DNA from: an uncultured Gammaproteobacteria bacterium
GTDB lineage: Bacteria > Patescibacteriota > Microgenomatia > JALYQM01
Direction: 5' to 3'
Length of the DNA: 64,000 nucleotides
NCBI GenBank assembly: GCA_964403585.1
Contig: CAYOFQ010000001.1
Location: 1,216,826-1,280,825, forward strand
Below, in pieces: positions 1,215-64,000 of this stretch (positions are counted from its first letter, which is position 1; each line of letters opens with the position of its first letter). The position numbers were made by a program, and so were the translations under genes. Below the pieces are notes generated by a model. That model was not told the DNA's origin and did no database searches. It saw only the letters and a program-made list of their open reading frames with translations.

Positions 1215-2486
1215 TTATGTATTTGGTGTCGTCCGATTTTTATACGCAGCAACAAGCCTGGGTATTGGCCACATCTGAGTTATGTCCCATGCTTTTTGCC
1301 CAGAAACTGCTAAAGCGGCAGATACCTGATCTTCAGACATCCGATGAGTAACAGCGTTTGTAGTGGCCATCTGTAATCCGGACAGATCATTTTGAACCTC
1401 GGTAATCAGGCACGCCCAAGTTCCAACCAACATATCATATACCGGCGTCTCTCTAAACGGATCGATAGCCACGTTAATTTCGGTGATCGCGTTGAGTAAA
1501 GGATCCGCCCACCCCGATCCCCCTTCTTTTATCAGACTCGGCATATCCCGATCCAGACGTTTATACGCTCGATACATGGTATAGAGCAGATTGTAATACG
1601 TATCAATTGTATCCGAGTCGACTGCGGTAAGATCAACGTTCACAACAGCATCGCGGATATTCGGATGCTCAGTGTCAATCAGTGCCTTAACAACAATACG
1701 CCGTTCTTCCGGCAACGCATCCGTAAATAAAGGGATATCGGTTCGGTTATAATCATCTTTTGATTGAAACGAGTTATAGCCACCGGTATCAGGCAGAATA
1801 AAATCAGAGAGTTTTCCTACTTGTGAGTTAAGACCAAGTAAACGGAGGCCATCAATTCGCCGGATGTCCCGCATATCGATACGCACAGCAATCAGCAGCT
1901 GGCGATCATTATAGATATTTCCCCCACTTGTAAAGGCACTTCCCCCACTCGCCTCAACGTAGCGCAACCCAAGACCTTTGGATACATCACCTTTCGTACG
2001 ATAGTCAGGAGTAAATATCGCACCTGGCATATGCTCAAGAAGCTGCCAGGGAAAATCTTCTCTTCGTTCATTAGTCCATTGTTCAACTACCCCGGGTCGG
2101 AAACTGCTTACGGTTCTACGCAACTGATTCATTGTTTCAGTCTTCGCCTGAATCTGTCTCACGGCAACACGGGTGGTATCAGTATCAAATTGCTTGCTTG
2201 ATTCAAGTAGGGCTATCCCGTCAGCAATTAAGGCATTGTTCGCAGCAGAAAGATCCCGCAAATGTCTGGCAACATCACCACGCCATTGCTCAAGCTGAGG
2301 AAATCCATGGATACCGACACTAATTGGCAAACTGTGGTCCTCAAGATTACGACCAACTCGCCGGACAGCTAATCCTGCCTGCAATACTGATAGCGCATTT
2401 TCACCGGACTTAGCATCAGGAAGAGAATATAATAAACTATCTAAATACGAAGTGGCGTACTTGCCTTCTATTTTTTTCATAGTCAA
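1215..2486 (-). CDS. hypothetical protein, 423 aa, inserted between secY and adk
   Basis: Long uninterrupted ORF, co-directional and tightly spaced (13-16 nt gaps) inside the spc operon; no motif I recognise. Confidence 0.6.
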   Translation of the reverse strand: MTMKKIEGKYATSYLDSLLYSLPDAKSGENALSVLQAGLAVRRVGRNLEDHSLPISVGIHGFPQLEQWRGDVARHLRDLSAANNALIADGIALLESSKQFDTDTTRVAVRQIQAKTETMNQLRRTVSSFRPGVVEQWTNERREDFPWQLLEHMPGAIFTPDYRTKGDVSKGLGLRYVEASGGSAFTSGGNIYNDRQLLIAVRIDMRDIRRIDGLRLLGLNSQVGKLSDFILPDTGGYNSFQSKDDYNRTDIPLFTDALPEERRIVVKALIDTEHPNIRDAVVNVDLTAVDSDTIDTYYNLLYTMYRAYKRLDRDMPSLIKEGGSGWADPLLNAITEINVAIDPFRETPVYDMLVGTWACLITEVQNDLSGLQMATTNAVTHRMSEDQVSAALAVSGQKAWDITQMWPIPRLVAAYKNRTTPNT

Positions 2487-27367: not shown

Positions 27368-27940
27368 CTATCCTAACCCCAACATCACCTTCACCACACC
27401 CCACTCAACAACCGTCAAGTAAATTACCCACACCACCAGCAAACTTCGAACAATAAAAACCTCAGTCCAGCCTCCCGTTTTCATACGCATGAATTTCAAA
27501 GGTGGAATTCCAAATCGGAACTTAATTGGCCATAATAAGGGAATCCCATCCTTAGTAATAGCATCGGCAAACAAATGAGAAATGAGCGAAATAACATACG
27601 CTAGCCACAATGCCTGCAGATTGAAGCCGTTCGCTTCAGGGATCATAAAAATGAGCCAGTGAGACAAATACCACAGAATTGCAACACCTAAAATTGAGTG
27701 CGAAATACTACGGTGTCTTCCAAAAGCCCGCTCCCCCACTTCGGCAAATAAGCGCTGACCTATTGGCACTATTTGATATATCTTATTTTCCTGGCTATCC
27801 AAATCCGGGGTTAAGCTTCCCAAAGAAATTAATAATACAGCAGCTATTACTGTTTGAGGATTGAGATGCGGCGTCTGCATAATGACTGCATAAGTATAAA
27901 CAGACACAAAACCAACTAGTTGGTGTGATTTTCCCACCAT
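27368..27940 (-). CDS. membrane-bound metal-dependent hydrolase (YdjM/DUF457-like)
   Basis: Multi-TM protein with GRHRSISHSILG-type His motifs; 190 aa. Confidence 0.55.
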   Translation of the reverse strand: MVGKSHQLVGFVSVYTYAVIMQTPHLNPQTVIAAVLLISLGSLTPDLDSQENKIYQIVPIGQRLFAEVGERAFGRHRSISHSILGVAILWYLSHWLIFMIPEANGFNLQALWLAYVISLISHLFADAITKDGIPLLWPIKFRFGIPPLKFMRMKTGGWTEVFIVRSLLVVWVIYLTVVEWGVVKVMLGLG

Positions 27941-28078: not shown

Positions 28079-30292
28079 ATGGCAAAAAGCGTCGAACAAC
28101 CTGCAGAACCTCAAAAACCACATCAGATAATTGAACTGAAACCAAACCGTTTTGGTCTGGAAACACCTGACACTGCTATCTCACTATTTGGAGCACTTTC
28201 CTCGCTACCTCGCGCACCTTTCTTTGAGCGGTTACGGGGACGACACCACTCTATTACCCTGGAAATTGCGACTATCAATCAGGCGATCCATTTTTTCGCC
28301 GAAATGCCTGATCAGTTTAAAACCTTTTTTGAGAGTCAGCTGATTTCCCACTATCCGACTATTCAAATGTACCAGGTCGATGACTATCTACCGGGGTTCC
28401 TCTCTCAACCATATTTATCGTATGGTCAAATAAAATTTTACTCACCCTTCTACTACCCCATCAAAACCTTAAAGGATTTTAAAGACATCGATCCGCTTTC
28501 TTCAATCCTGGGTGTCATGTCAAAAACAAAGCCCAATGAGGGAATGCTAATTCAAATGACGCTGACCGCCGCACCACCCACCTGGCAGCGTATGGGTAGA
28601 AATGTCATTGATAAGGGTATTCCCGGACCGGAAAAAGGTACACGTCAAGCGCATCCGCAGGCAGCACTTATTCAGAGTAAAATCGATAGCAACGGACTGC
28701 ATGTAGCGATTAAAGTTGCCGCCTTTGCGGCAGATCTGAATACGGCAAGATCCAATTTGTATAATTTGGGTGGAGCCTACGGAGGATTCGCAACTGGTGA
28801 AGGGAACGCTTTGATATTACGATTACCATCGGTATTTGCCCGCAAAAAATTCCTGGAAAGCATGCGACAAAGAACCATCGCCTTCTCACCTCGAAACCAT
28901 GTCTTCTCGGATGAAGAACTCGCTACCATTTGGCATCTACCGGGTGAAAAACTGGCCGGTATTAAAAACATTGCGTGGGGAAAAAGCCAGAAAGGTGAGC
29001 CGCCACAAAACTTACCAATCGCACGGAATTTAACAGCCGAACAGAAACAGGAAGTTGCTTGGCTGGGACGGACTGATTTTAAAAACACTGAGGAAATTTT
29101 TGGTATTAAAAAAGAGGACCGGTTTAAACACACGTATGTAATTGGAAAAACCGGTACGGGTAAATCCACGCTTTTACAAAATATGATTATCTCGGATATG
29201 CGCAATCGCGAAGGATTATGTATCATCGATCCGCATGGCGATTTCGCCGATGTTATCCTCGATTATGTACCATCCTACCGTATTAACGATGTTGTTTACC
29301 TTGATCCTTCCGACATGGAACATCCGTTCCGCTTAAATCCGTTCGAGTTAGGCACCATTAACGCCTCCGACCTTACCGGACAACGCGAACTGGTTGCTGC
29401 CGGTATTGTGGGAATTTTCAAAAAACTGTATGCCAAGAGCTGGGGACCCCGATTGGAATATATTCTACGCAATGTAATCCTGACACTGGTACAGTTTAAA
29501 GATGCTACCTTTTTATACGTACCGGAAATGCTCACCAACGACCGCGTTAGAGGCGCGATTGTCTCCCGCATCCAGGATCCGGTCTTACGCAGTTTCTGGG
29601 AACAGGAATTTGCCGGCATGACCGATAAACTCCGCACCGAAGCAATCTCACCAATTCTAAACAAAGTCGGACAATTTATCAGTTCGCAATATACCCGATC
29701 GGTTATCTCAAGCCCTCGTTCTTCTATAAGTTTGGAGCAAATAATGGACGAGAAAAAAATTCTTATTCTTAACCTGTCTCAGGGAAAAATCGGCGAAGAC
29801 AACTCTGCTCTCCTTGGTGCGATGTTTATTACCAAAATGCAGATCGCTGCGATGAACCGCGCCTGGCTCGCCAAAGACCAGCGCCAGGATTTTTTCCTTT
29901 ACGTCGATGAGTTCCAGAACTTTGCTACTGACGCGTTCATTAAAATTCTTTCTGAAGCTCGTAAGTATCGTTTGGCCTTGATCATGGCTAACCAGTACAC
30001 ATCTCAGCTTAACGACGATATCCGCAGTTCAATCTTCGGTAACGTCGGTACATTAGTTTCCTTTACGGTTGGAGCGGAAGACGCCCCGTATCTCTCAAGA
30101 GAATTTGGAGGAATTTATACTGAACAAGACCTAGTAGGTATCGACAACTACAATATTGTTTGTAAACTTAACATCGATAACCAGACAAGTTTACCTTTTA
30201 GTGCCAAGACATTACCACTGCCTTACCAGCTGAAAAATAAAAACAAAGAGAAAGTACTCAAAGTAAGCTGGGAAAAATACGGAAAAAAATAA
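28079..30292 (+). CDS. TraD/VirD4/TrwB-like coupling-protein-family P-loop NTPase (FtsK/HerA superfamily) with novel soluble ~330-aa N-terminal domain
   Basis: Walker A VIGKTGTGKSTLLQNMI, DPHGDF motif, Walker B LYVDEFQNF; no TM helix at the N-terminus; 737 aa. Confidence 0.6.
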   Translation: MAKSVEQPAEPQKPHQIIELKPNRFGLETPDTAISLFGALSSLPRAPFFERLRGRHHSITLEIATINQAIHFFAEMPDQFKTFFESQLISHYPTIQMYQVDDYLPGFLSQPYLSYGQIKFYSPFYYPIKTLKDFKDIDPLSSILGVMSKTKPNEGMLIQMTLTAAPPTWQRMGRNVIDKGIPGPEKGTRQAHPQAALIQSKIDSNGLHVAIKVAAFAADLNTARSNLYNLGGAYGGFATGEGNALILRLPSVFARKKFLESMRQRTIAFSPRNHVFSDEELATIWHLPGEKLAGIKNIAWGKSQKGEPPQNLPIARNLTAEQKQEVAWLGRTDFKNTEEIFGIKKEDRFKHTYVIGKTGTGKSTLLQNMIISDMRNREGLCIIDPHGDFADVILDYVPSYRINDVVYLDPSDMEHPFRLNPFELGTINASDLTGQRELVAAGIVGIFKKLYAKSWGPRLEYILRNVILTLVQFKDATFLYVPEMLTNDRVRGAIVSRIQDPVLRSFWEQEFAGMTDKLRTEAISPILNKVGQFISSQYTRSVISSPRSSISLEQIMDEKKILILNLSQGKIGEDNSALLGAMFITKMQIAAMNRAWLAKDQRQDFFLYVDEFQNFATDAFIKILSEARKYRLALIMANQYTSQLNDDIRSSIFGNVGTLVSFTVGAEDAPYLSREFGGIYTEQDLVGIDNYNIVCKLNIDNQTSLPFSAKTLPLPYQLKNKNKEKVLKVSWEKYGKK

Positions 30293-38165: not shown

Positions 38166-39640
<1,475 letters not shown>

Positions 39641-39738
39641 ATAAAAATTATCCATCAAATTTTGGGTATTCCGTTATCAATCCTACTAACTCTTACAAGC
39701 GTTCGGTCTGTCAAACGGAATGAAATTCATAGGAATTG

Positions 39739-40883: not shown

Positions 40884-41963
40884 TTGAGAATAGGTCTACA
40901 ATATGATATAAAAAAGCGTCCCTACATATGCACATCGAACAACTGGATTTTCTTGCACCAACACCATGGAATACAACAATGGAACTCATCAGTAATAACC
41001 CGTACGACGCTGGATGATATGTGGTTCCCTGTTTACTGTGACATGAACCGGGAATGGGTTCACTTGGATCCGTATGTTTTCGGTACGAATGGTTCGGAGA
41101 CAATCGAAGGGCCATTACCTGAACTGATACACGTTCTGGCTAAAGCTATCGGAATTGAAATACCGGTTATCCTTACCACGGAGGAACAGATTTCTGCCGA
41201 TGTTTATGAAGAACAAACCCAACTGGTACCCGGTAACGTTTCTCGGGCTGTCGCACTACGCAAAATTTTGGCACAACACGCTGATCAAGGATACTCACCC
41301 GGACCTGACAATATGGGAGAAGTGCTCGCCGAAGCCGAAGAACAACGAAAAAAGCAGCGGTTCCTGCGCAGAAAAATCGGATTTGCAAAAAAAACGTATC
41401 AGGAAACCGTCTACCATAAACCGCAAATTAACGTAATTCATGTCCTCGATCACCCCTACCAAAGCACTCAATCTCAACTTAATGCATATATGTGGTGGGT
41501 CAATAATTTCTATTATTATGTCATGGCCCGTCCCAACAACGGAACTCAATCAATCACCTATATCACCCGCGACATTGACTCTCCACTTGGATTCCCCAAA
41601 AATGTTCGTTCTCAAGGCGCCTTGCATATAAACACTACCGGCGATACAAATACCTTGCTGGATCTGGCGATTGAACATACTGCATTGCTCAAACAAGGAC
41701 CAAATAGCAAAACACACATCTTCTATTACTCTACACCGGAGCAACATCCCCGCATGCTGGAACAAACCTTAAACCAGGTACAGGCACTGGATTTAGAAAA
41801 CGACTCAATAACACTCTTAGAAGGAGACAATGTGTATCGCCAAAGTCCACTTTACTATCACCTTCACTCTCAAGGTGGTACGCTTCAGGCGGAAAAATTC
41901 GACCCTAATAAGATAGGACAAACTCTCAGCCTTACCCTACGAAACCCCTTTAGATATGCATAG
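40884..41963 (+). CDS. hypothetical protein, 359 aa
   Basis: Long ORF; true start may be an internal Met. Confidence 0.45.
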   Translation: MRIGLQYDIKKRPYICTSNNWIFLHQHHGIQQWNSSVITRTTLDDMWFPVYCDMNREWVHLDPYVFGTNGSETIEGPLPELIHVLAKAIGIEIPVILTTEEQISADVYEEQTQLVPGNVSRAVALRKILAQHADQGYSPGPDNMGEVLAEAEEQRKKQRFLRRKIGFAKKTYQETVYHKPQINVIHVLDHPYQSTQSQLNAYMWWVNNFYYYVMARPNNGTQSITYITRDIDSPLGFPKNVRSQGALHINTTGDTNTLLDLAIEHTALLKQGPNSKTHIFYYSTPEQHPRMLEQTLNQVQALDLENDSITLLEGDNVYRQSPLYYHLHSQGGTLQAEKFDPNKIGQTLSLTLRNPFRYA

Positions 41964-42006: not shown

Positions 42007-44835
42007 ATGCTTTCAAAAACGCTGAGCAATTCTCTCCAACGCAATAAAATAGTATTTATCTATGCAATTTTCGCAGCAGTTCTTGGCTTGTCACTCTATT
42101 ACAGCCAGACATCAACAGTAAAAATCAATCAAAAGAAACCTGAGATCTCCGGAACACTTCGGCATATTACCCAACACGTACTCGATCAGGAAAATCCCAT
42201 TGAGCAGGCAGTGCTTGTAACAGAGGGGAAAACATACACTTTGGATTATGGAGATAACCTGGAAGAATATTACAATAAGTATATAACCGTCCAGGGAGAC
42301 ATTAATCAGAATACGCTCATTGCACAAAAAATAGAGCTCTCCACAAACGCTTCGTTGACCGATATTGACTCAAGTGAAGCGCAATCAACAACCGGCGATA
42401 TAAAACCATTAGTACTTCTCATTAATTTCAAGGACAATACGTCAACTCCTTTTAGCAAAGAATTACTTGCTCAGAACATTTTTACCGGAGAAAATTCAGT
42501 AAAAAATTATTTTACTGAAGCTTCATTTGGAAAAACAAAAATTATCGGCGACATAAACAGTGTCAAAGGATGGTATACCATCGACTTGGCAAGCGACAAA
42601 TGTGATACAAATTGGCTTTATGATATGGGTATCAAAGCCAGAGCAAAAGCAGAAGCTGACGGAATTAGCTACAGCAACTACAACTCCTTTATCATCATCC
42701 ATGCTCGAACAGCAGCCTGCAGTACCAAGCTAGACGGAAAAACATATCCAATTGAAGGACTGTCTGAGTTAGGAGGAAGATTGGTCTGGATGAACGGCAA
42801 TGCGAATATCCGACCTATTGCCCATGAAATTGTACATACGATGGGTATCGGACACTCGCATCTCTGTACAGACATTTCCTGCCAAACAATTAGGGAAACC
42901 GGCGACCGGACAGATTTAATGGGAATTTACCAAAACACAGCGCCTTCACATATTAACGCAGCGTTTAAAAATGCTCTTAAATGGATTCCTGAAACCGAAC
43001 CCCGCACAAAAAGACTACTTGGTCCGAAGAAATATGATAATCTAGCGATTTATCCTGTCGAAGAATCAAGTTCTAACACCCAGCTAATAAAAATTGGAAT
43101 TCTCCCCCCTTATTATTCGGCGGACTATACTATTACCTACCGAGTTAAAAAGGACAATAACTTCGACGCTCGGGCAAATATTGAAAACGGAATATATATC
43201 CACCGTTATTCCACACTTGAGTCAACATTCGGGAAACAATCACCCAGTTCAAAATTAGTCAGACATTTGACCCCTGGCAACCCAACATTTACCGATCCGG
43301 AATATAAAGTAACAATCAAATTAATTGGCATGGATTCAACAAAAGCAAACTTGTTTATAGATTACGGGCTTGATGGAACGTTCGTCAACGAACCTGCACC
43401 TAGTCCAAGCGGTACTGCCCCGTCCATCAGCTACTGTTCAGGGCTCGATGCTAAAAATATGCTCTCTAACGCTGTGACTTATTGTTACGGACATGCGAAG
43501 AGCACAACCTGCGCAACTATGGATACAGCTCTTCGAGCATCATATGGACCGGCCAATCTATGCGAACAAAATAAAACCCAGTGTACCAGCGGTGCTTCCA
43601 GCGGGATATGTACTGCCGCAGCCGAATTTCAAAAAGTTACCGATTGGTGTTATAACATCGTACGCAATGATCCGACCGAAGCCGGCAAAGCTGGCGTCAG
43701 CGCAAAATGGTGCAATGATTTCGCGACAGTAACAAGTGATGCCCATGAAGACTGCAACACCTGTTCCGGCGGCACCGGAAGTAATCCTGAAGCCACACCG
43801 AAGATAGTAGCAATCAATGGAGGTATTTGGGATACTAATGGAAATCCGGTGAGTGGAGTAAAAGTAAAAGTTGAAGGCAATGGAGCTAGCGGCGCCTGGA
43901 AACCATACTTCCCGACAACTCGACCAAACGGGACTTTTAGTCAAGGTGGATTTATAGTTAAAGGCGGAAGATATAACGTCTCGGTAGTTGATGTTGAAGC
44001 AAAAACTATTGTTGAGCCTGATACAAAAAATAGAGTTACCGGACAAGATACACCACTTGGATCAGTTGCGTATCTAAATCAACAAGCGGAAAGCGACGAT
44101 TGCACAGAAAGTTGGGGTGGAGCTGATTCTCGATGTATTTTTCTAGTACGAAAACCTTTGGACATCGGAACTGCCAATGACGTTACGACATTCTATTACC
44201 CTTCAAATGACCGAATAGTGGTGCATCGCTCCTATGTAATGAAAGACGGGCGAACTTTCAATTGGAGAAAATGTTCATTTCCTCCTGCAAAAGGATGGCC
44301 TGTTTACTGTGAAGGATATAACAAAACAATGCTGGATACACCTACTCCAATACTCGGGTACGGAGCACTCATGATCTCGAGCAAAGTTCGCCAGGATTTT
44401 ATCGCATCCAACGGACAGACCAGGTACAGTAGAGTCTGCGCATGGAACAAAGAAAAATCTCAGGTTACAACTTGTGGGGCGTATGTTACCGAAAAAATTA
44501 CTGCCCCAACCGCAGTCAGAGACATTAACACGATGATTTTGTTCGGAAAATATCGGGAATCGCTCATTAGCCTTGATGGCAAAAAAACGTATTCAAGGGA
44601 CTGCACACTAGACTTCAGCACCACTGCTTTTTCAAACTGTACAGCATATCAAACATACTCAACTCAAACAATACTTTCTGGCGGTGTTAGTGGTTATGGA
44701 GCACTCCCTTATCGAGATGGGTATGGCAGAACTGCAATTCAGCAAATATTCCTTGGCATGGATGGACGTACATTCCAGGTGGGAAGCTGTGTTGCTCAAT
44801 CCTCCAGCAATATTACCTGCAAGAATGTATTTTAG
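42007..44835 (+). CDS. large secreted/membrane-anchored metzincin-like zinc metalloprotease with Cys-rich C-terminal region
   Basis: N-terminal hydrophobic anchor IVFIYAIFAAVLGLSLYY; IAHEIVHTMGIGHSH fits HExxHxxGxxH; more than 25 Cys in the C-terminal half; 942 aa. Confidence 0.6.
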   Translation: MLSKTLSNSLQRNKIVFIYAIFAAVLGLSLYYSQTSTVKINQKKPEISGTLRHITQHVLDQENPIEQAVLVTEGKTYTLDYGDNLEEYYNKYITVQGDINQNTLIAQKIELSTNASLTDIDSSEAQSTTGDIKPLVLLINFKDNTSTPFSKELLAQNIFTGENSVKNYFTEASFGKTKIIGDINSVKGWYTIDLASDKCDTNWLYDMGIKARAKAEADGISYSNYNSFIIIHARTAACSTKLDGKTYPIEGLSELGGRLVWMNGNANIRPIAHEIVHTMGIGHSHLCTDISCQTIRETGDRTDLMGIYQNTAPSHINAAFKNALKWIPETEPRTKRLLGPKKYDNLAIYPVEESSSNTQLIKIGILPPYYSADYTITYRVKKDNNFDARANIENGIYIHRYSTLESTFGKQSPSSKLVRHLTPGNPTFTDPEYKVTIKLIGMDSTKANLFIDYGLDGTFVNEPAPSPSGTAPSISYCSGLDAKNMLSNAVTYCYGHAKSTTCATMDTALRASYGPANLCEQNKTQCTSGASSGICTAAAEFQKVTDWCYNIVRNDPTEAGKAGVSAKWCNDFATVTSDAHEDCNTCSGGTGSNPEATPKIVAINGGIWDTNGNPVSGVKVKVEGNGASGAWKPYFPTTRPNGTFSQGGFIVKGGRYNVSVVDVEAKTIVEPDTKNRVTGQDTPLGSVAYLNQQAESDDCTESWGGADSRCIFLVRKPLDIGTANDVTTFYYPSNDRIVVHRSYVMKDGRTFNWRKCSFPPAKGWPVYCEGYNKTMLDTPTPILGYGALMISSKVRQDFIASNGQTRYSRVCAWNKEKSQVTTCGAYVTEKITAPTAVRDINTMILFGKYRESLISLDGKKTYSRDCTLDFSTTAFSNCTAYQTYSTQTILSGGVSGYGALPYRDGYGRTAIQQIFLGMDGRTFQVGSCVAQSSSNITCKNVF

Positions 44836-62644: not shown

Positions 62645-63055
62645 ATGGCCGACAAAAAAATCAATTATTTTATTCAACATTATCAGCCTATTACTGCGAA
62701 TCCGCATACAACTCAACCACCGATTAAAGGTGCCGGACTGGAAAATGAAGCGTTCAGTAGCGCTCCTTCCGAATATGCACCAATAGAAGAATATGTCGAA
62801 CCTGAACTAAACATTGAAATGCAGCAGCACATGCAGGCAACCAATGTTAAGTTCACTCCTCCTCCCCAGATACCGGTCACTCCGGTTGCCCCGCCGCAAA
62901 TGAATATTCCGGCAGTTAAAACACCACAACTACCACTCCAGGAGCTTGAAATAGAAAAAGAAATGAAAACAGATGTGTATACGGCAATTCGCTGGCTGGC
63001 CGAATGGTGCTTACGACAGCTCAAGGAAGTCCAGCTGAAAGAGAAAGAAGTGTAA
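62645..63055 (+). CDS. hypothetical Pro-rich protein, 136 aa
   Basis: ORF only. Confidence 0.35.
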   Translation: MADKKINYFIQHYQPITANPHTTQPPIKGAGLENEAFSSAPSEYAPIEEYVEPELNIEMQQHMQATNVKFTPPPQIPVTPVAPPQMNIPAVKTPQLPLQELEIEKEMKTDVYTAIRWLAEWCLRQLKEVQLKEKEV

Positions 63056-63108: not shown

Positions 63109-64000
63109 ATGTTCCTAACCGGAGATATCTTCCAAGCCTTGCCATTTTTAGGACTAATGCTCCTGACTATCGTCCTCACCCTCCTCATTGTTGGCGGAAT
63201 GCTCCTTATCGTCGGCATACTCGTTATCCGCTTCTCCGTATACAAAGAACGCGAGCAGGAATCCTTAAAGTCTAAGCTCTTACAAATAACCATACCCAGA
63301 GATAACGAAGTTAAGATTGATGCTGCTGAACAAATGTTCTCCGCCTTCACCGGCATATATAAGTCGGCATTAATCCCGATGCTAAAACACCAGCCATCAA
63401 TTAGTTTTGAAATAGTCGGACAGCCGGAGTCAATCAAATTTTATATTAACGCTCCTGAAGATCTGCAGGATCTCATTGAAAAACAAATTCATGCCGCCTA
63501 TTCCGGAGCAGAAATTAAAATAGTTGATGAATACAACATCTTTACAACTACAGGCAAGGTCCAATTTGCCTCATTACGCCTGAAATCGGCTAATTATCAA
63601 CCTATTAAAACATACAAGGAGCTGGCAACTGACCCGCTTTCAGCACTTACCTCGGCGTTAGCCAAAATGCGCGAAGGTGAAGGCGCAGTTATTCAGATGA
63701 TCATTGCGCCGGCCGGCGGGAAATGGTCGAAACGCGGGTACAGTTTCATTAAAGCCCAACGTTCACAGGAAACTTCCGGCGAAAAACCCAAACCAGCCGA
63801 TGCCAAACAGCTCGAAGCAATCGAACAGAAAACAGCCAAGCCGGGGTATGAAACAGCAATCCGCATTGTGGTTTGTGCTCAAACCAAGGACATGGCCAAA
63901 ACACATCTCAACAATATTCGGGCCAGCTTTGAGCAGTTCAACGGTCCGTACAACGGATTTAAAACAAAAAAAATCTGGTCGAAAAAAGTATTTCTTACTA
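63109..64000 (+). CDS. membrane-anchored paralog of the 28079..30292 TraD/VirD4-like protein (N-terminal domain only; continues beyond window end)
   Basis: My translation from the ATG at 63109 starts MFLTGDIFQALPFLGLMLLTIVLTLLIVGGMLLIVGILVI (TM) and has no stop to 64000. Segments align to the 28079 protein, e.g. PLSALTSALAKMREGEGAVIQMIIAPAGGKWSKRG vs PLSSILGVMSKTKPNEGMLIQMTLTAAPPTWQRMG. Confidence 0.6.
   Translation, partial: MFLTGDIFQALPFLGLMLLTIVLTLLIVGGMLLIVGILVIRFSVYKEREQESLKSKLLQITIPRDNEVKIDAAEQMFSAFTGIYKSALIPMLKHQPSISFEIVGQPESIKFYINAPEDLQDLIEKQIHAAYSGAEIKIVDEYNIFTTTGKVQFASLRLKSANYQPIKTYKELATDPLSALTSALAKMREGEGAVIQMIIAPAGGKWSKRGYSFIKAQRSQETSGEKPKPADAKQLEAIEQKTAKPGYETAIRIVVCAQTKDMAKTHLNNIRASFEQFNGPYNGFKTKKIWSKKVFLT

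What the first reader, a model, noticed from the sequence alone, without database searches (positions are those of the whole stretch)
28079..30292. Soluble TraD/VirD4-like ATPase with a novel ~330-aa N-terminal domain; membrane-anchored paralog at 63109..64000
The C-terminal half carries coupling-protein-type motifs (GKTGTGKST, DPHGDF, DEFQNF) but the N-terminus lacks the usual TM anchor and has an unrecognised domain. The partial ORF at the window end (63109 onward, not in the supplied ORF track because it has no stop) shares this N-terminal domain: three alignable blocks, roughly 35-45% identity by eye. It adds an N-terminal TM helix instead. Two paralogs of one ATPase family, one soluble and one anchored, suggest a two-component translocation or DNA/protein export apparatus, possibly related to the T4SS/T4P-like machinery proposed for host interaction in episymbiotic CPR.
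Basis: seen in the sequence. Interest (0 to 1): 0.55.

Follow-up and report, generated by a model that had tools for sequence, protein, structure and literature searches.

The report
Paired orphan conjugation-type motor ATPases
The window encodes two old paralogues, one soluble and one membrane-anchored, of a coupling-protein-like ATPase family found in almost every CPR/Patescibacteria genome; the family is already catalogued (Pfam DUF8128, "T4CP homologues") but its function is unknown, and its N-terminal domain is predicted to fold like the N-terminal domain of the type IV secretion ATPase VirB4.

Summary
ORF A (28079..30292, 737 aa, no hydrophobic segment) and the truncated ORF B (63109..64000) share an N-terminal domain (26% identity over 220 aa, BLASTP E=6e-20; z=33 against shuffles). 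A 100%-identical public contig completes ORF B: 781 aa, with one N-terminal TM segment and its own Walker A/B ATPase half. The two proteins are 33% identical over 698 aa.

The N-domain is not unrecognised. It is Pfam PF26449 (DUF8128). Each protein has more than 4,800 homologues across all CPR classes. A 2025 survey counted about two "VirD4-like T4CP homologues" per Patescibacteria genome, mostly unlinked to virB4; equating these with the present family is my inference.

New here:
- The AlphaFold N-domain matches only the VirB4 (TrwK) N-domain in the PDB (Foldseek E=7.5e-7), while the motor half matches TrwB.
- The duplication predates the divergence of CPR classes.
- Parcubacteria encode the protein as two genes, split at an invariant PPxNLP motif.
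- In Bacillus plasmids the same architecture sits in the coupling-protein slot next to a relaxase.

No T4SS or pilus gene lies in the window. Hetero-oligomer formation was not testable. Verdict: a new member of a known but uncharacterised family, of moderate interest.

The parts
28079..30292 (+). ORF A: soluble DUF8128 + VirD4-like ATPase, 737 aa (A-lineage paralogue)
   Evidence: ORF call. Pfam DUF87, TrwB_AAD_bind, T4SS-DNA_transf and TraG-D_C in aa 330-690. PF26449 is precomputed for the identical protein P0001. AlphaFold model pLDDT 92.3.
28118..28978 (+). DUF8128 N-terminal domain of ORF A (about aa 14-300), predicted VirB4-NTD-like alpha/beta fold
   Evidence: Domain-only model: pLDDT 88.4, pTM 0.86. 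In Foldseek against the PDB the top 12 hits are all TrwK/VirB4, best E=7.5e-7, TMq 0.45-0.50. The domain is shared with ORF B.
28994..29017 (+). Invariant linker motif GEPPQNLP (aa 306-313) between the N-domain and the motor; site of the gene fission in Parcubacteria
   Evidence: P309 and P313 are invariant in 111 sequences. Fourteen Parcubacteria-type loci place a stop codon right after this motif and restart with ATG.
29144..29170 (+). Walker A (P-loop) GKTGTGKST
   Evidence: Position. G356, G359, G361 and K362 are invariant in both paralogue lineages.
29336..29749 (+). All-alpha insertion (about aa 420-557) within the nucleotide-binding domain, equivalent to the TrwB all-alpha domain
   Evidence: Eight helices lie between strands 405-408 and 561-565 in the model. 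The motor half superposes on TrwB-deltaN70 over 400-446 columns, TMt 0.64-0.68.
29906..29923 (+). Walker B DEFQNF
   Evidence: Position. V609, D610, E611, F612 and Q613 are invariant.
63109..64000 (+). ORF B (first 297 of 781 aa): membrane-anchored DUF8128 + ATPase paralogue (B-lineage), running off the window end
   Evidence: Translation. Completed by the identical contig L001. PF26449 and TrwB_AAD_bind. Found on the same 1.57-Mb contig as ORF A.
63136..63234 (+). N-terminal hydrophobic anchor of ORF B (about aa 10-42), followed by the basic stretch KEREQESLKSK
   Evidence: KD19 maximum 3.03. A comparable segment is present in 120/120 B-type orthologues. The topology (motor in the cytoplasm) is inferred from the positive-inside rule.
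62645..63055 (+). Small ORF (136 aa) directly upstream of ORF B; candidate conserved partner
   Evidence: A small ORF occupies the same position upstream of B-type genes in two other Microgenomates loci and shares a C-terminal motif LPL..EI...V..I(R/K)WLA.WC.R.LK. It has no Pfam hit.

Best explanation
ORF A and ORF B are the two ancient paralogues of the Patescibacteria-wide DUF8128 / VirD4-like ATPase family, the 'orphan T4CP homologues' of CPR genomes.

Anatomy. Each protein has two parts. The C-terminal part is a motor of the FtsK/HerA/VirD4 superfamily: a RecA-like nucleotide-binding domain with intact Walker A and B motifs, plus an inserted all-alpha domain as in TrwB. The N-terminal ~300-residue DUF8128 domain is predicted to fold like the N-terminal domain of VirB4, which in solved T4SS structures docks that ATPase onto membrane components.

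How it likely works. ORF B is held at the membrane by one N-terminal helix with its motor in the cytoplasm. ORF A has lost that helix and must reach its site through protein contacts. Like their relatives, they most likely assemble into ATP-driven rings that recruit and push a polymer through or to a membrane channel. The polymer is most plausibly DNA, and less likely an unfolded protein.

Origin. The family descends from the coupling proteins of monoderm (Tcp-type) conjugation systems, where the same architecture still sits next to the relaxase. In CPR it has become a chromosomal, near-universal, duplicated core gene.

Shown versus inferred. Shown here: homology, domain layout, paralogy, conservation and genomic context. 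Inferred: ring assembly, the substrate, and the partner. I lean toward these proteins serving the chromosomal Patescibacteria T4SS, which lacks its own coupling protein (about 0.4), over a T4SS-independent role (about 0.3).
For: Family and spread:
- There are more than 4,864 (A) and more than 5,686 (B) homologues at E<1e-5. All listed full-length ones carry PF26449. Named members come from Gottesman-, Shapiro-, Beckwith-, Davies- and Curtissbacteria and Saccharimonadia.
- The 80 genome loci span Microgenomates, Saccharibacteria, Dojka-, Peregrini- and Parcubacteria.

Motor:
- Pfam T4CP families score above their gathering cut-offs.
- The profile search against the PDB finds DotL and TrwB at E=1.1e-5.
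- Foldseek gives TrwB TMt 0.64-0.68, rmsd ~4.4 A over ~405 columns.
- Walker A/B residues and further motor residues are invariant across 111 A- and B-type sequences.

N-domain:
- Foldseek hits only TrwK/VirB4 chains with confidence (E=7.5e-7 to 1.5e-4, prob 1.0) and no other RecA-type ATPase.
- The full-length model's best hit is full-length VirB4, aligned over 863 columns.

Origin:
- Two unrelated B. subtilis plasmids encode a soluble DUF8128+ATPase protein (N-domain HMM E=4e-33 and 3e-36) as the first gene of the operon DUF8128-ATPase / Replic_Relax / TcpC / TcpE / TcpF(VirB4).

Paralogy:
- A versus B is 33% identical, while A orthologues are 50-55% and B orthologues 62-66% identical across orders.
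- The NJ tree places a Saccharibacteria paralogue inside the B clade.
- One Beckwithbacteria MAG carries both types.

Modularity:
- Parcubacteria encode TM+DUF8128 and the ATPase as adjacent separate genes.

Core-genome status:
- GC content is uniform and the neighbours are housekeeping genes.
- In the literature, 5,713 VirD4-type T4CP homologues occur in 2,918 of 3,035 Patescibacteria genomes, and only 148 lie near virB4 (PMC12102498).
- The Southlakia T4SS cluster lacks a recognisable coupling protein (PMC10633639).
Against: - No T4SS, relaxase or pilus gene is in the window or among the conserved neighbours in 80 loci.
- T4CP homologues are present in more genomes (2,918) than VirB4 (2,417). 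The survey reports that the Southlakia homologue was dispensable for epibiotic growth while T4SS genes were essential. Both points argue against an obligatory T4SS role.
- The canonical T4CP two-helix membrane domain is absent from A and replaced by a single segment in B.
- The VirB4-NTD similarity is structural only, and one side is a prediction. hmmsearch of the N-domain against the PDB finds no VirB4. Profile-profile alignment to a diverse TcpF/VirB4 NTD profile is not significant (prob 6%, P=0.006, against controls of 0.036 and 0.28).
- NCBIfam T4CP equivalog cut-offs are missed by a wide margin.
- Equating this family with the paper's 'T4CP homologues' is my inference, based on annotation names and copy number.
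Confidence: 0.65

Rival explanations
1. T4SS-independent housekeeping DNA translocase. The pair acts on the cell's own or incoming DNA (FtsK/SftA-like chromosome clearing at division, or a ComFA-like pulling motor for transforming DNA). It has only the ancestry of a coupling protein, not the job.
For: - The family is near-universal and more widespread than VirB4 (2,918 against 2,417 of 3,035 genomes), and it was reported as not needed for epibiotic growth in Southlakia, where T4SS genes are essential.
- B-type conservation is very high (62-66% identity across orders).
- There is recurrent synteny with topA (20 of 80 loci) and dprA (14 loci). In Saccharibacteria the division/cell-wall cluster ftsQ-murG-ftsW-mraY-ftsI lies immediately downstream. 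This holds in both Saccharibacteria and Microgenomates A-lineage loci.
- There are weak FtsK_SpoIIIE hits.
Against: - The synteny involves housekeeping genes in very compact genomes, is largely within one class, and is absent from this window.
- Neither topA nor dprA lies near ORF A or B here.
- The FtsK hit is below the Pfam cut-off and covers only Walker A (22.3 against 24 bits). There is no gamma/KOPS domain.
- TM7x is annotated with a separate ftsK (PMC10768705), although I could not inspect that gene.
- A XerD-like neighbour seen in one locus is not conserved.
Confidence: 0.25
2. One reading: the soluble and the anchored paralogue work together as one two-component (hetero-oligomeric) translocation motor. 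The anchored B provides the membrane site and the soluble A is recruited to it, comparable to the inner and outer VirB4 protomers of the R388 machine.
For: - Both lineages co-occur (about two copies per genome; one Beckwithbacteria MAG has both).
- Both keep every catalytic residue.
- In three loci two full-length paralogues lie adjacent or within about 3 kb of each other (L028, L031, L044).
- In Parcubacteria the TM+DUF8128 module and the motor are separate polypeptides that must associate.
- VirB4, whose NTD fold the domain resembles, forms dimers arranged in inner and outer rings (review PMC12857230).
Against: - There is no direct evidence.
- The genes are unlinked in this genome (33 kb apart) and in most loci.
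- In other classes the A-lineage paralogue keeps its own TM segment. The soluble state is therefore a derived Microgenomates feature, not a conserved division of labour.
- The two lineages evolve at different rates, which would be unusual for obligate ring partners.
Confidence: 0.2
3. Remnant of an integrated conjugative element or plasmid (a decaying mobile-element coupling protein with no host function), or a HerA-type anti-phage defence ATPase.
For: - Outside CPR the family is carried by mobile elements: 321 plasmid records and 48 Bacillus phage records, plus PHROG 5156 at E=2e-65 and 2.5e-93.
- PADLOC gives mad8 at E=3e-17 and HerA at 3e-9 on the ATPase half.
- PDB sequence hits include defence-system HerA proteins at E=0.006-0.03.
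Against: - The ORFs are full length with all catalytic residues intact and are conserved across all CPR classes at 50-66% identity.
- Base composition is uniform.
- No integrase, relaxase, Sir2/NurA, DUF4297 or other mad genes lie nearby; the flanks are msrA, ydjM, histidine phosphatases, a ribosomal operon and 16S rRNA.
- The defence hits cover only the shared P-loop core.
Confidence: 0.04

Closest known systems
Type IV coupling proteins of the VirD4 family (TrwB of R388, TraD, DotL, Cag-beta)
   Same: The motor half is the same kind. It has Walker A/B, a RecA-like NBD and an inserted all-alpha domain. Pfam TrwB_AAD_bind, T4SS-DNA_transf and TraG-D_C score above their cut-offs. TrwB and DotL are the best PDB sequence hits. 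Foldseek TMt to TrwB is 0.64-0.68.
   Different: There is no two-helix N-terminal membrane domain. Instead there is a ~300-aa DUF8128 domain (A: soluble; B: one hydrophobic segment). No relaxase or T4SS genes are nearby. The genes are chromosomal, near-universal and duplicated. NCBIfam equivalog cut-offs are missed by about tenfold.
VirB4 (TrwK of R388; TcpF/AAA_10 in monoderms)
   Same: The overall two-domain layout (N-terminal alpha/beta domain plus C-terminal motor) is shared, and so is the predicted fold of the N-domain. VirB4 is the top Foldseek hit both for the full-length model (E=1.6e-17, 863 columns) and for the N-domain alone (E=7.5e-7). ORF B's TM segment followed by the NTD resembles natural VirB3-VirB4 fusions (my own knowledge, not tested here).
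   Different: There is no sequence-level membership: no PF03135 or AAA_10 hit, and VirB4_CagE scores 23 bits against a cut-off of 643. NTD profile-profile alignment is not significant. The motor is closer to VirD4 than to VirB4. No VirB3, VirB6 or VirB8 neighbours are present.
DUF8128-ATPase proteins of Bacillus Tcp-type plasmids (e.g. WP_121549396.1 on NZ_CP032854.1; WP_213380696.1 on NZ_OX419568.1), annotated 'DUF87 domain-containing protein'
   Same: The architecture is the same end to end: a soluble N-domain plus the motor. tblastn covers ORF A residues 37-707 (E=2e-29). The CPR-derived N-domain HMM scores E=4e-33 and 3e-36.
   Different: These proteins are plasmid-borne. They are the first gene of a conjugation operon, directly upstream of a Replic_Relax protein and of TcpC/TcpE/TcpF. 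They carry an acidic C-terminal tail of 170-200 aa and share only 23-25% identity with ORF A. They are uncharacterised experimentally as far as I could find.
FtsK/SpoIIIE and TcpA-type FtsK-like coupling proteins
   Same: They belong to the same ATPase superfamily and are membrane-tethered ring translocases. Some CPR members lie next to division genes.
   Different: FtsK_SpoIIIE scores below its cut-off and only over Walker A. There is no four-helix membrane domain and no gamma domain.
PHROG 5156 / Bacillus phage G gp156 and relatives in SPO1-like and CP-51-like phages
   Same: They are homologous over most of the length: PHROG E=2e-65 (A) and 2.5e-93 (B); phage G gp156 covers ORF B residues 93-733 at E=1e-33.
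   Different: They are phage-encoded, of unknown function, and 20-23% identical.

Membership tests
DUF8128 (Pfam PF26449) ATPase family | Match to the PF26449 model in the N-terminal ~300 residues | tested here: met
   PF26449 is precomputed for the identical protein P0001 and for all full-length homologues. It is listed as DUF8128 for ORF A and for the full ORF B. The local Pfam copy lacks this model, so it did not appear.
VirD4-type coupling protein (T4CP) | P-loop NBD of the FtsK/HerA/VirD4 superfamily with Walker A and B | tested here: met
   GKTGTGKST and DEFQNF are present and invariant in 111 sequences. Pfam T4SS-DNA_transf scores 33.1 bits (cut-off 20.1), TrwB_AAD_bind 33.4 (20.5) and TraG-D_C 25.1 (22).
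VirD4-type coupling protein (T4CP) | All-alpha domain inserted in the NBD | tested here: met
   This rests on a predicted structure only. A helical block at aa ~420-557 lies between NBD strands. Superposition on TrwB-deltaN70 covers 400-446 columns, TMt 0.64-0.68.
VirD4-type coupling protein (T4CP) | N-terminal transmembrane domain (typically two helices with a periplasmic loop) | tested here: not met
   ORF A has no hydrophobic segment (KD19 max 1.04). ORF B has one ~33-residue segment, not a two-helix domain.
VirD4-type coupling protein (T4CP) | Genetic association with a relaxase and/or a T4SS channel | tested here: not met
   None is present in the 64-kb window or among conserved neighbours of 80 loci. 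The feature is met for the Bacillus plasmid homologues. The rest of this genome could not be scanned.
VirD4-type coupling protein (T4CP) | Score above curated NCBIfam cut-offs for TraD / VirD4 families | tested here: not met
   SXT_TraD scores 41.9 bits against a cut-off of 366, conju_CD1115 41.6 against 250, and conj_TOL_TraD 29.8 against 648.
VirB4 | VirB4-type N-terminal domain | tested here: inconclusive
   At fold level the answer is yes: the top 12 Foldseek hits for the N-domain model are all TrwK chains, E=7.5e-7, TMq 0.45-0.50. At sequence level it is no: hmmsearch against the PDB finds nothing, and hhalign against a 106-sequence TcpF NTD profile gives prob 6%, P=0.006.
VirB4 | Sequence membership (PF03135 CagE_TrbE_VirB or PF12846 AAA_10; TIGR00929) | tested here: not met
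   There is no PF03135 or PF12846 hit. TIGR00929 scores 23.4 bits against a cut-off of 643. The motor-to-VirB4-CTD relation is only superfamily level (hhalign prob 97%, 17% identity).
FtsK/SpoIIIE | FtsK_SpoIIIE motor above cut-off, multi-helix membrane domain, gamma (KOPS-binding) domain | tested here: not met
   PF01580 scores 22.3 bits against 24, over Walker A only (aa 332-372) in A, and 15 bits in B. There is no Ftsk_gamma hit.
HerA (repair or defence) | HAS-barrel N-domain plus HerA ATPase, with a NurA, Sir2 or DUF4297 partner | tested here: not met
   DUF87 is above its cut-off (38.1 against 23.2), but NF040819 HerA scores 13.4 against 970. PADLOC HerA hits cover only ~50 residues around Walker A. 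No partner genes are present.

The most novel reading that the evidence does not exclude
DUF8128 ATPases form a distinct, so far undescribed branch of the type IV secretion ATPases that combines a VirB4-type N-terminal docking domain with a VirD4-type motor, making them a living intermediate between the two sister families. In CPR bacteria this branch has been domesticated as a near-universal anchored/soluble pair that works apart from conjugation, for example as the motor that brings host-derived nucleic acid into cells that cannot make nucleotides.
Probability: 0.15. Interest if true: 0.8.

Novelty: new member of a known kind. Interest (0 to 1): 0.4.

Why it matters
CPR/Patescibacteria make up a large share of bacterial diversity, and recent reviews call the role of their type IV secretion genes 'completely unknown' (PMC11665869). 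[quoted passage not shown] By my identification with the surveyed T4CP homologues, it occurs at about two copies in 96% of genomes.

Three findings give concrete handles for experiments in the few tractable Saccharibacteria:
- The N-domain is predicted to fold like the VirB4 docking domain.
- Parcubacteria encode the two halves as separate genes.
- Plasmid relatives sit in the coupling-protein slot.

These also bear on how the VirB4 and VirD4 ATPase families diverged. For this particular window, however, the genes are ordinary members of that family.

Tried and rejected
1. Sequence-level homology of DUF8128 to the VirB4 NTD. None of the following was significant, so the claim stays at fold level:
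- hmmsearch of the N-domain profile against the PDB.
- hhalign against a single TcpF NTD (prob 0.4%).
- hhalign against a 106-sequence diverse TcpF NTD profile built (prob 6%, P=0.006, with control noise at 0.036-0.28).

2. A XerD/FtsK-style link. A tyrosine recombinase and DivIC follow the B-type gene in one Beckwithbacteria locus. This is not so in another locus or in this genome, where the downstream gene is a beta-helix protein.

3. YdjM as a conserved divergent partner of ORF A. It is present here but is not a recurrent neighbour in the 80 loci.

4. Finding VirB4 near family members. A phmmer search with a TcpF query over 1,067 neighbour proteins gave one marginal hit (E=0.002).

5. Extending the window on its own 1.57-Mb contig. 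The index returned only short Logan contigs, so the rest of the genome (virB4, ftsK, comFA) could not be inspected.

6. R388 (BR000038) is not in the plasmid collection, so TrwK itself could not be aligned.

7. The ~350-aa proteins that clustered with the family turned out to be a separate sigma-70-region-4 / HARE-HTH-like protein, joined to the family only by one read-through ORF call.

8. Hetero-hexamer modelling was not possible with the tools available.
Full report
**Observation**

ORF A occupies 28079..30292 (+) and encodes 737 aa. The protein has no hydrophobic segment (best 19-residue Kyte-Doolittle mean 1.04), and no in-frame upstream start is available.

The frame opening at 63109 runs to the window end and starts with a ~33-residue hydrophobic stretch. 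Its first 297 residues align with ORF A residues 31-239 at 26% identity, BLASTP E=6e-20. The Smith-Waterman score is 195, against 33.7 +/- 4.9 for 300 shuffles (z=33). The shared domain is therefore real, although the identity is lower than the '35-45%' judged by eye.

**Completing ORF B**

The last complete ORF of the window (62645..63055) was looked up in public assemblies. Contig L001 (Logan, 4,095 bp) is identical to the window over all 1,396 overlapping bases. It carries ORF B to its stop: 781 aa with GKTGTGKS, DPHG and DEFQNF.

That exact protein and ORF A are both recorded on one 1,573,555-bp NCBI contig. Full-length A and B are 33% identical over 698 residues (E=5e-132).

**What family this is**

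The N-domain is not unrecognised. The precomputed Pfam annotation of the identical protein and of all its full-length relatives lists PF26449, named DUF8128. The local Pfam copy lacks this model, which explains the empty N-terminus.

Named members come from Gottesman-, Shapiro-, Beckwith-, Davies- and Curtissbacteria and Saccharimonadia, usually annotated 'type IV secretion system DNA-binding domain-containing protein'. A scan of species-representative genomes returned 80 loci from every major Patescibacteria class.

A 2025 survey reports 5,713 VirD4-type coupling-protein homologues in 2,918 of 3,035 Patescibacteria genomes. Only 148 lie near virB4. The authors state that exaptation to other functions cannot be excluded, because the Southlakia homologue was not essential for epibiotic growth (PMC12102498). 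I infer, from annotation names and copy number, that these are the family seen here.

**Anatomy**

The C-terminal half (aa ~330-720) scores above the Pfam gathering cut-offs for DUF87/HerA, TrwB_AAD_bind, T4SS-DNA_transf and TraG-D_C. Its best PDB relatives by sequence are TrwB and DotL. It falls far below NCBIfam's equivalog cut-offs for TraD and VirD4.

An AlphaFold model built on 111 family sequences is confident (pLDDT 92.3). It shows a RecA-like core with an inserted block of eight helices. This half superposes on TrwB-deltaN70 with TMt 0.64-0.68 over ~405 columns. Walker A, Walker B and further motor residues are invariant in both paralogue lineages, so both are expected to be active.

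The best Foldseek hit of the whole model, however, is full-length TrwK/VirB4 of R388, aligned over 863 columns (E=1.6e-17). A separate model of residues 1-318 (pLDDT 88.4, pTM 0.86) hits twelve TrwK chains and nothing else with confidence (E=7.5e-7 to 1.5e-4, prob 1.0, TMq 0.45-0.50).

Two points indicate that the match is to the VirB4-specific N-terminal domain. No other RecA-type ATPase appears in that list. A 457-residue TrwK chain ranks third for the N-domain but is absent from the top 50 for the full-length query.

Sequence methods do not confirm this relation. The positive control, motor against VirB4 CTD, gives 97% probability. The N-domain/VirB4 relation therefore stands at fold level only.

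**Relatives outside CPR**

tblastn against plasmids finds 321 records. In two unrelated B. subtilis plasmids a soluble protein with the same N-domain (HMM E=4e-33 and 3e-36) and motor is the first gene of a conjugation operon. It is followed by a Replic_Relax protein, TcpC, TcpE and the VirB4 homologue TcpF. This is the coupling-protein position.

A haloarchaeal plasmid protein also has both domains. Bacillus phages (phage G gp156, SPO1-like and CP-51-like phages; PHROG 5156) carry homologues of unknown function.

**Paralogy, anchoring and fission**

A-type orthologues are 50-55% identical across Microgenomates orders, and B-type orthologues are 62-66% identical. A hydrophobic N-terminus occurs in 1/119 A-type and 120/120 B-type proteins.

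A rough NJ tree places a Saccharibacteria paralogue within the B clade. It groups the Microgenomates soluble A-type with TM-bearing paralogues of Saccharibacteria, Dojkabacteria and Peregrinibacteria. The duplication therefore predates class divergence, and the soluble state is derived.

In 14 loci, most of those with informative titles labelled Parcubacteria, the gene is split. A TM+DUF8128 ORF ends right after the invariant PPxNLP motif, and a new ATG starts the motor ORF. The stop codons and reading frames vary between loci. This is a true fission at the domain boundary.

**Context**

The window is core chromosome. It contains the S10-spc ribosomal operon with secY and adk, EF-G and EF-Tu, 16S rRNA, glycosyltransferases and pfkA. 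GC content is uniform. There is no T4SS, relaxase or pilus gene.

ORF A lies between a divergent ydjM and a convergent histidine phosphatase gene. ORF B follows a PEGA/SH3 lipoprotein gene and a 136-aa ORF. Counterparts of the 136-aa ORF upstream of B-type genes elsewhere share a C-terminal motif.

Across the 80 loci the recurrent neighbours are topA (20 loci), dprA (14), the ftsQ-murG-ftsW-mraY-ftsI cluster, secDF, and a sigma-70-region-4 / HARE-HTH-like protein directly upstream (28 loci). VirB4 is never among them.

**Mechanism and rivals**

The best-supported reading is a membrane-associated, ATP-driven ring translocase descended from monoderm conjugative coupling proteins. Its DUF8128 domain serves as a VirB4-NTD-like docking module. 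B is self-anchored, and A is recruited by protein contacts.

Whether the pair feeds the chromosomal Patescibacteria T4SS or works alone on DNA is unresolved. That T4SS lacks a recognisable coupling protein (PMC10633639). I put the odds at about 0.4 for a T4SS role and 0.3 for a stand-alone role.

The hetero-oligomer idea is compatible with co-occurrence and with the fission, but it is untested. The mobile-element-remnant and defence-ATPase readings are essentially excluded by conservation, context and the lack of partner genes.

**Novelty**

The two genes are ordinary members of a very large, already annotated and recently surveyed family, so the locus itself is not new. I did not find the following described in the held literature; a search for DUF8128 returned no paper:
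- the VirB4-like fold of DUF8128;
- the two ancient lineages;
- the Parcubacteria fission;
- the placement of the same architecture in the coupling-protein slot of Bacillus plasmids.

These are leads rather than proofs. Interest is moderate (0.4).

Noticed in passing
L037, L040, L041, L056, L057, L059, L065, L068, L071, L073, L074, L075, L080, L084 (junction coordinates): In these 14 loci (those with informative titles are mostly Parcubacteria lineages) the family is encoded as two adjacent genes. TM+DUF8128 (434-494 aa) ends just after the invariant PPxNLP motif, and a separate ATPase ORF (511-732 aa) restarts 2-140 nt later. The stops are TAA or TAG and the reading frames vary.
   Followed up: partly
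window 62645-63055 (+); L087 8459-9001; L088 8511-9020: A small ORF with no Pfam hit sits immediately upstream of B-type genes, abutting or overlapping their starts in two loci. It has a low-complexity N-terminus and a shared C-terminal motif LPL..EI...V..I(R/K)WLA.WC.R.LK. It is a possible accessory subunit.
   Followed up: partly
28 loci, e.g. L038 6617-7720, L041 3062-4222, L073 6301-7611: A ~350-aa protein lies directly upstream of the family member in Saccharibacteria and Parcubacteria. By eye it has a sigma-70 region-4-like helix-turn-helix near the N-terminus and a HARE-HTH-like C-terminal domain. No counterpart was found in the window.
   Followed up: partly
L009, L019, L022, L024, L025 (Microgenomates) and about 16 Saccharibacteria-type loci such as L038, L049, L058, L066, L083: There is recurrent synteny of the A-lineage gene with dprA and topA. 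In Saccharibacteria a divergent ftsQ-murG-ftsW-mraY-ftsI-ftsL cluster lies immediately downstream. In Parcubacteria secD/secF lie upstream instead.
   Followed up: partly
Bacillus phage G gp156 (JN638751.1 90994-93093) and 47 other Bacillus phage records; PHROG 5156: Large Bacillus phages (G, SPO1-like, CP-51-like, PBC5-like) carry homologues covering most of the protein. They are of unknown function, and some are mis-annotated as 'lipid A export ATP-binding/permease'.
   Followed up: no
L017, L021, L027 (Collierbacteria-type A-lineage, 1081-1110 aa); Saccharibacteria members of 900-1030 aa; Natrinema L089 11761-15537 (1258 aa): Several lineages add C-terminal extensions of 120-500 aa beyond the motor. 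The Bacillus plasmid proteins have a strongly acidic tail. The content of these extensions was not examined.
   Followed up: no
window 38166-39645 (-): A complete 16S rRNA gene stands alone. There is no 23S, 5S or tRNA gene anywhere in the 64-kb window, so the rRNA genes appear to be unlinked.
   Followed up: no
window 1215-2486 (-): A 423-aa ORF of unknown function is inserted between secY and adk at the end of the ribosomal protein operon, a junction that is normally tight.
   Followed up: no
window 42007-44835 (+) and 40884-41963 (+): There is a 942-aa Cys-rich protein with an N-terminal hydrophobic segment and essentially no Pfam match, preceded by a 359-aa ORF with no match. They are candidate surface or host-interaction proteins.
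   Followed up: no
L007, L016, L017, L019-L022, L025, L026, L029, L057, L068, L078 (record titles): Many 'binchicken' MAGs titled 'uncultured Gammaproteobacteria' or 'Pseudomonadales' carry typical Microgenomates-type family members at 43-51% identity. Single loci titled Nevskiaceae (L008), Chlamydiae (L055) and Planctomycetota (L072) also carry family members. The record taxonomy looks wrong.
   Followed up: no
window 27368-27940 (-): A YdjM-family inner-membrane protein gene lies divergent from ORF A, 138 bp away. ydjM belongs to the SOS regulon in E. coli (my own knowledge). The pairing is not conserved in other loci.
   Followed up: partly
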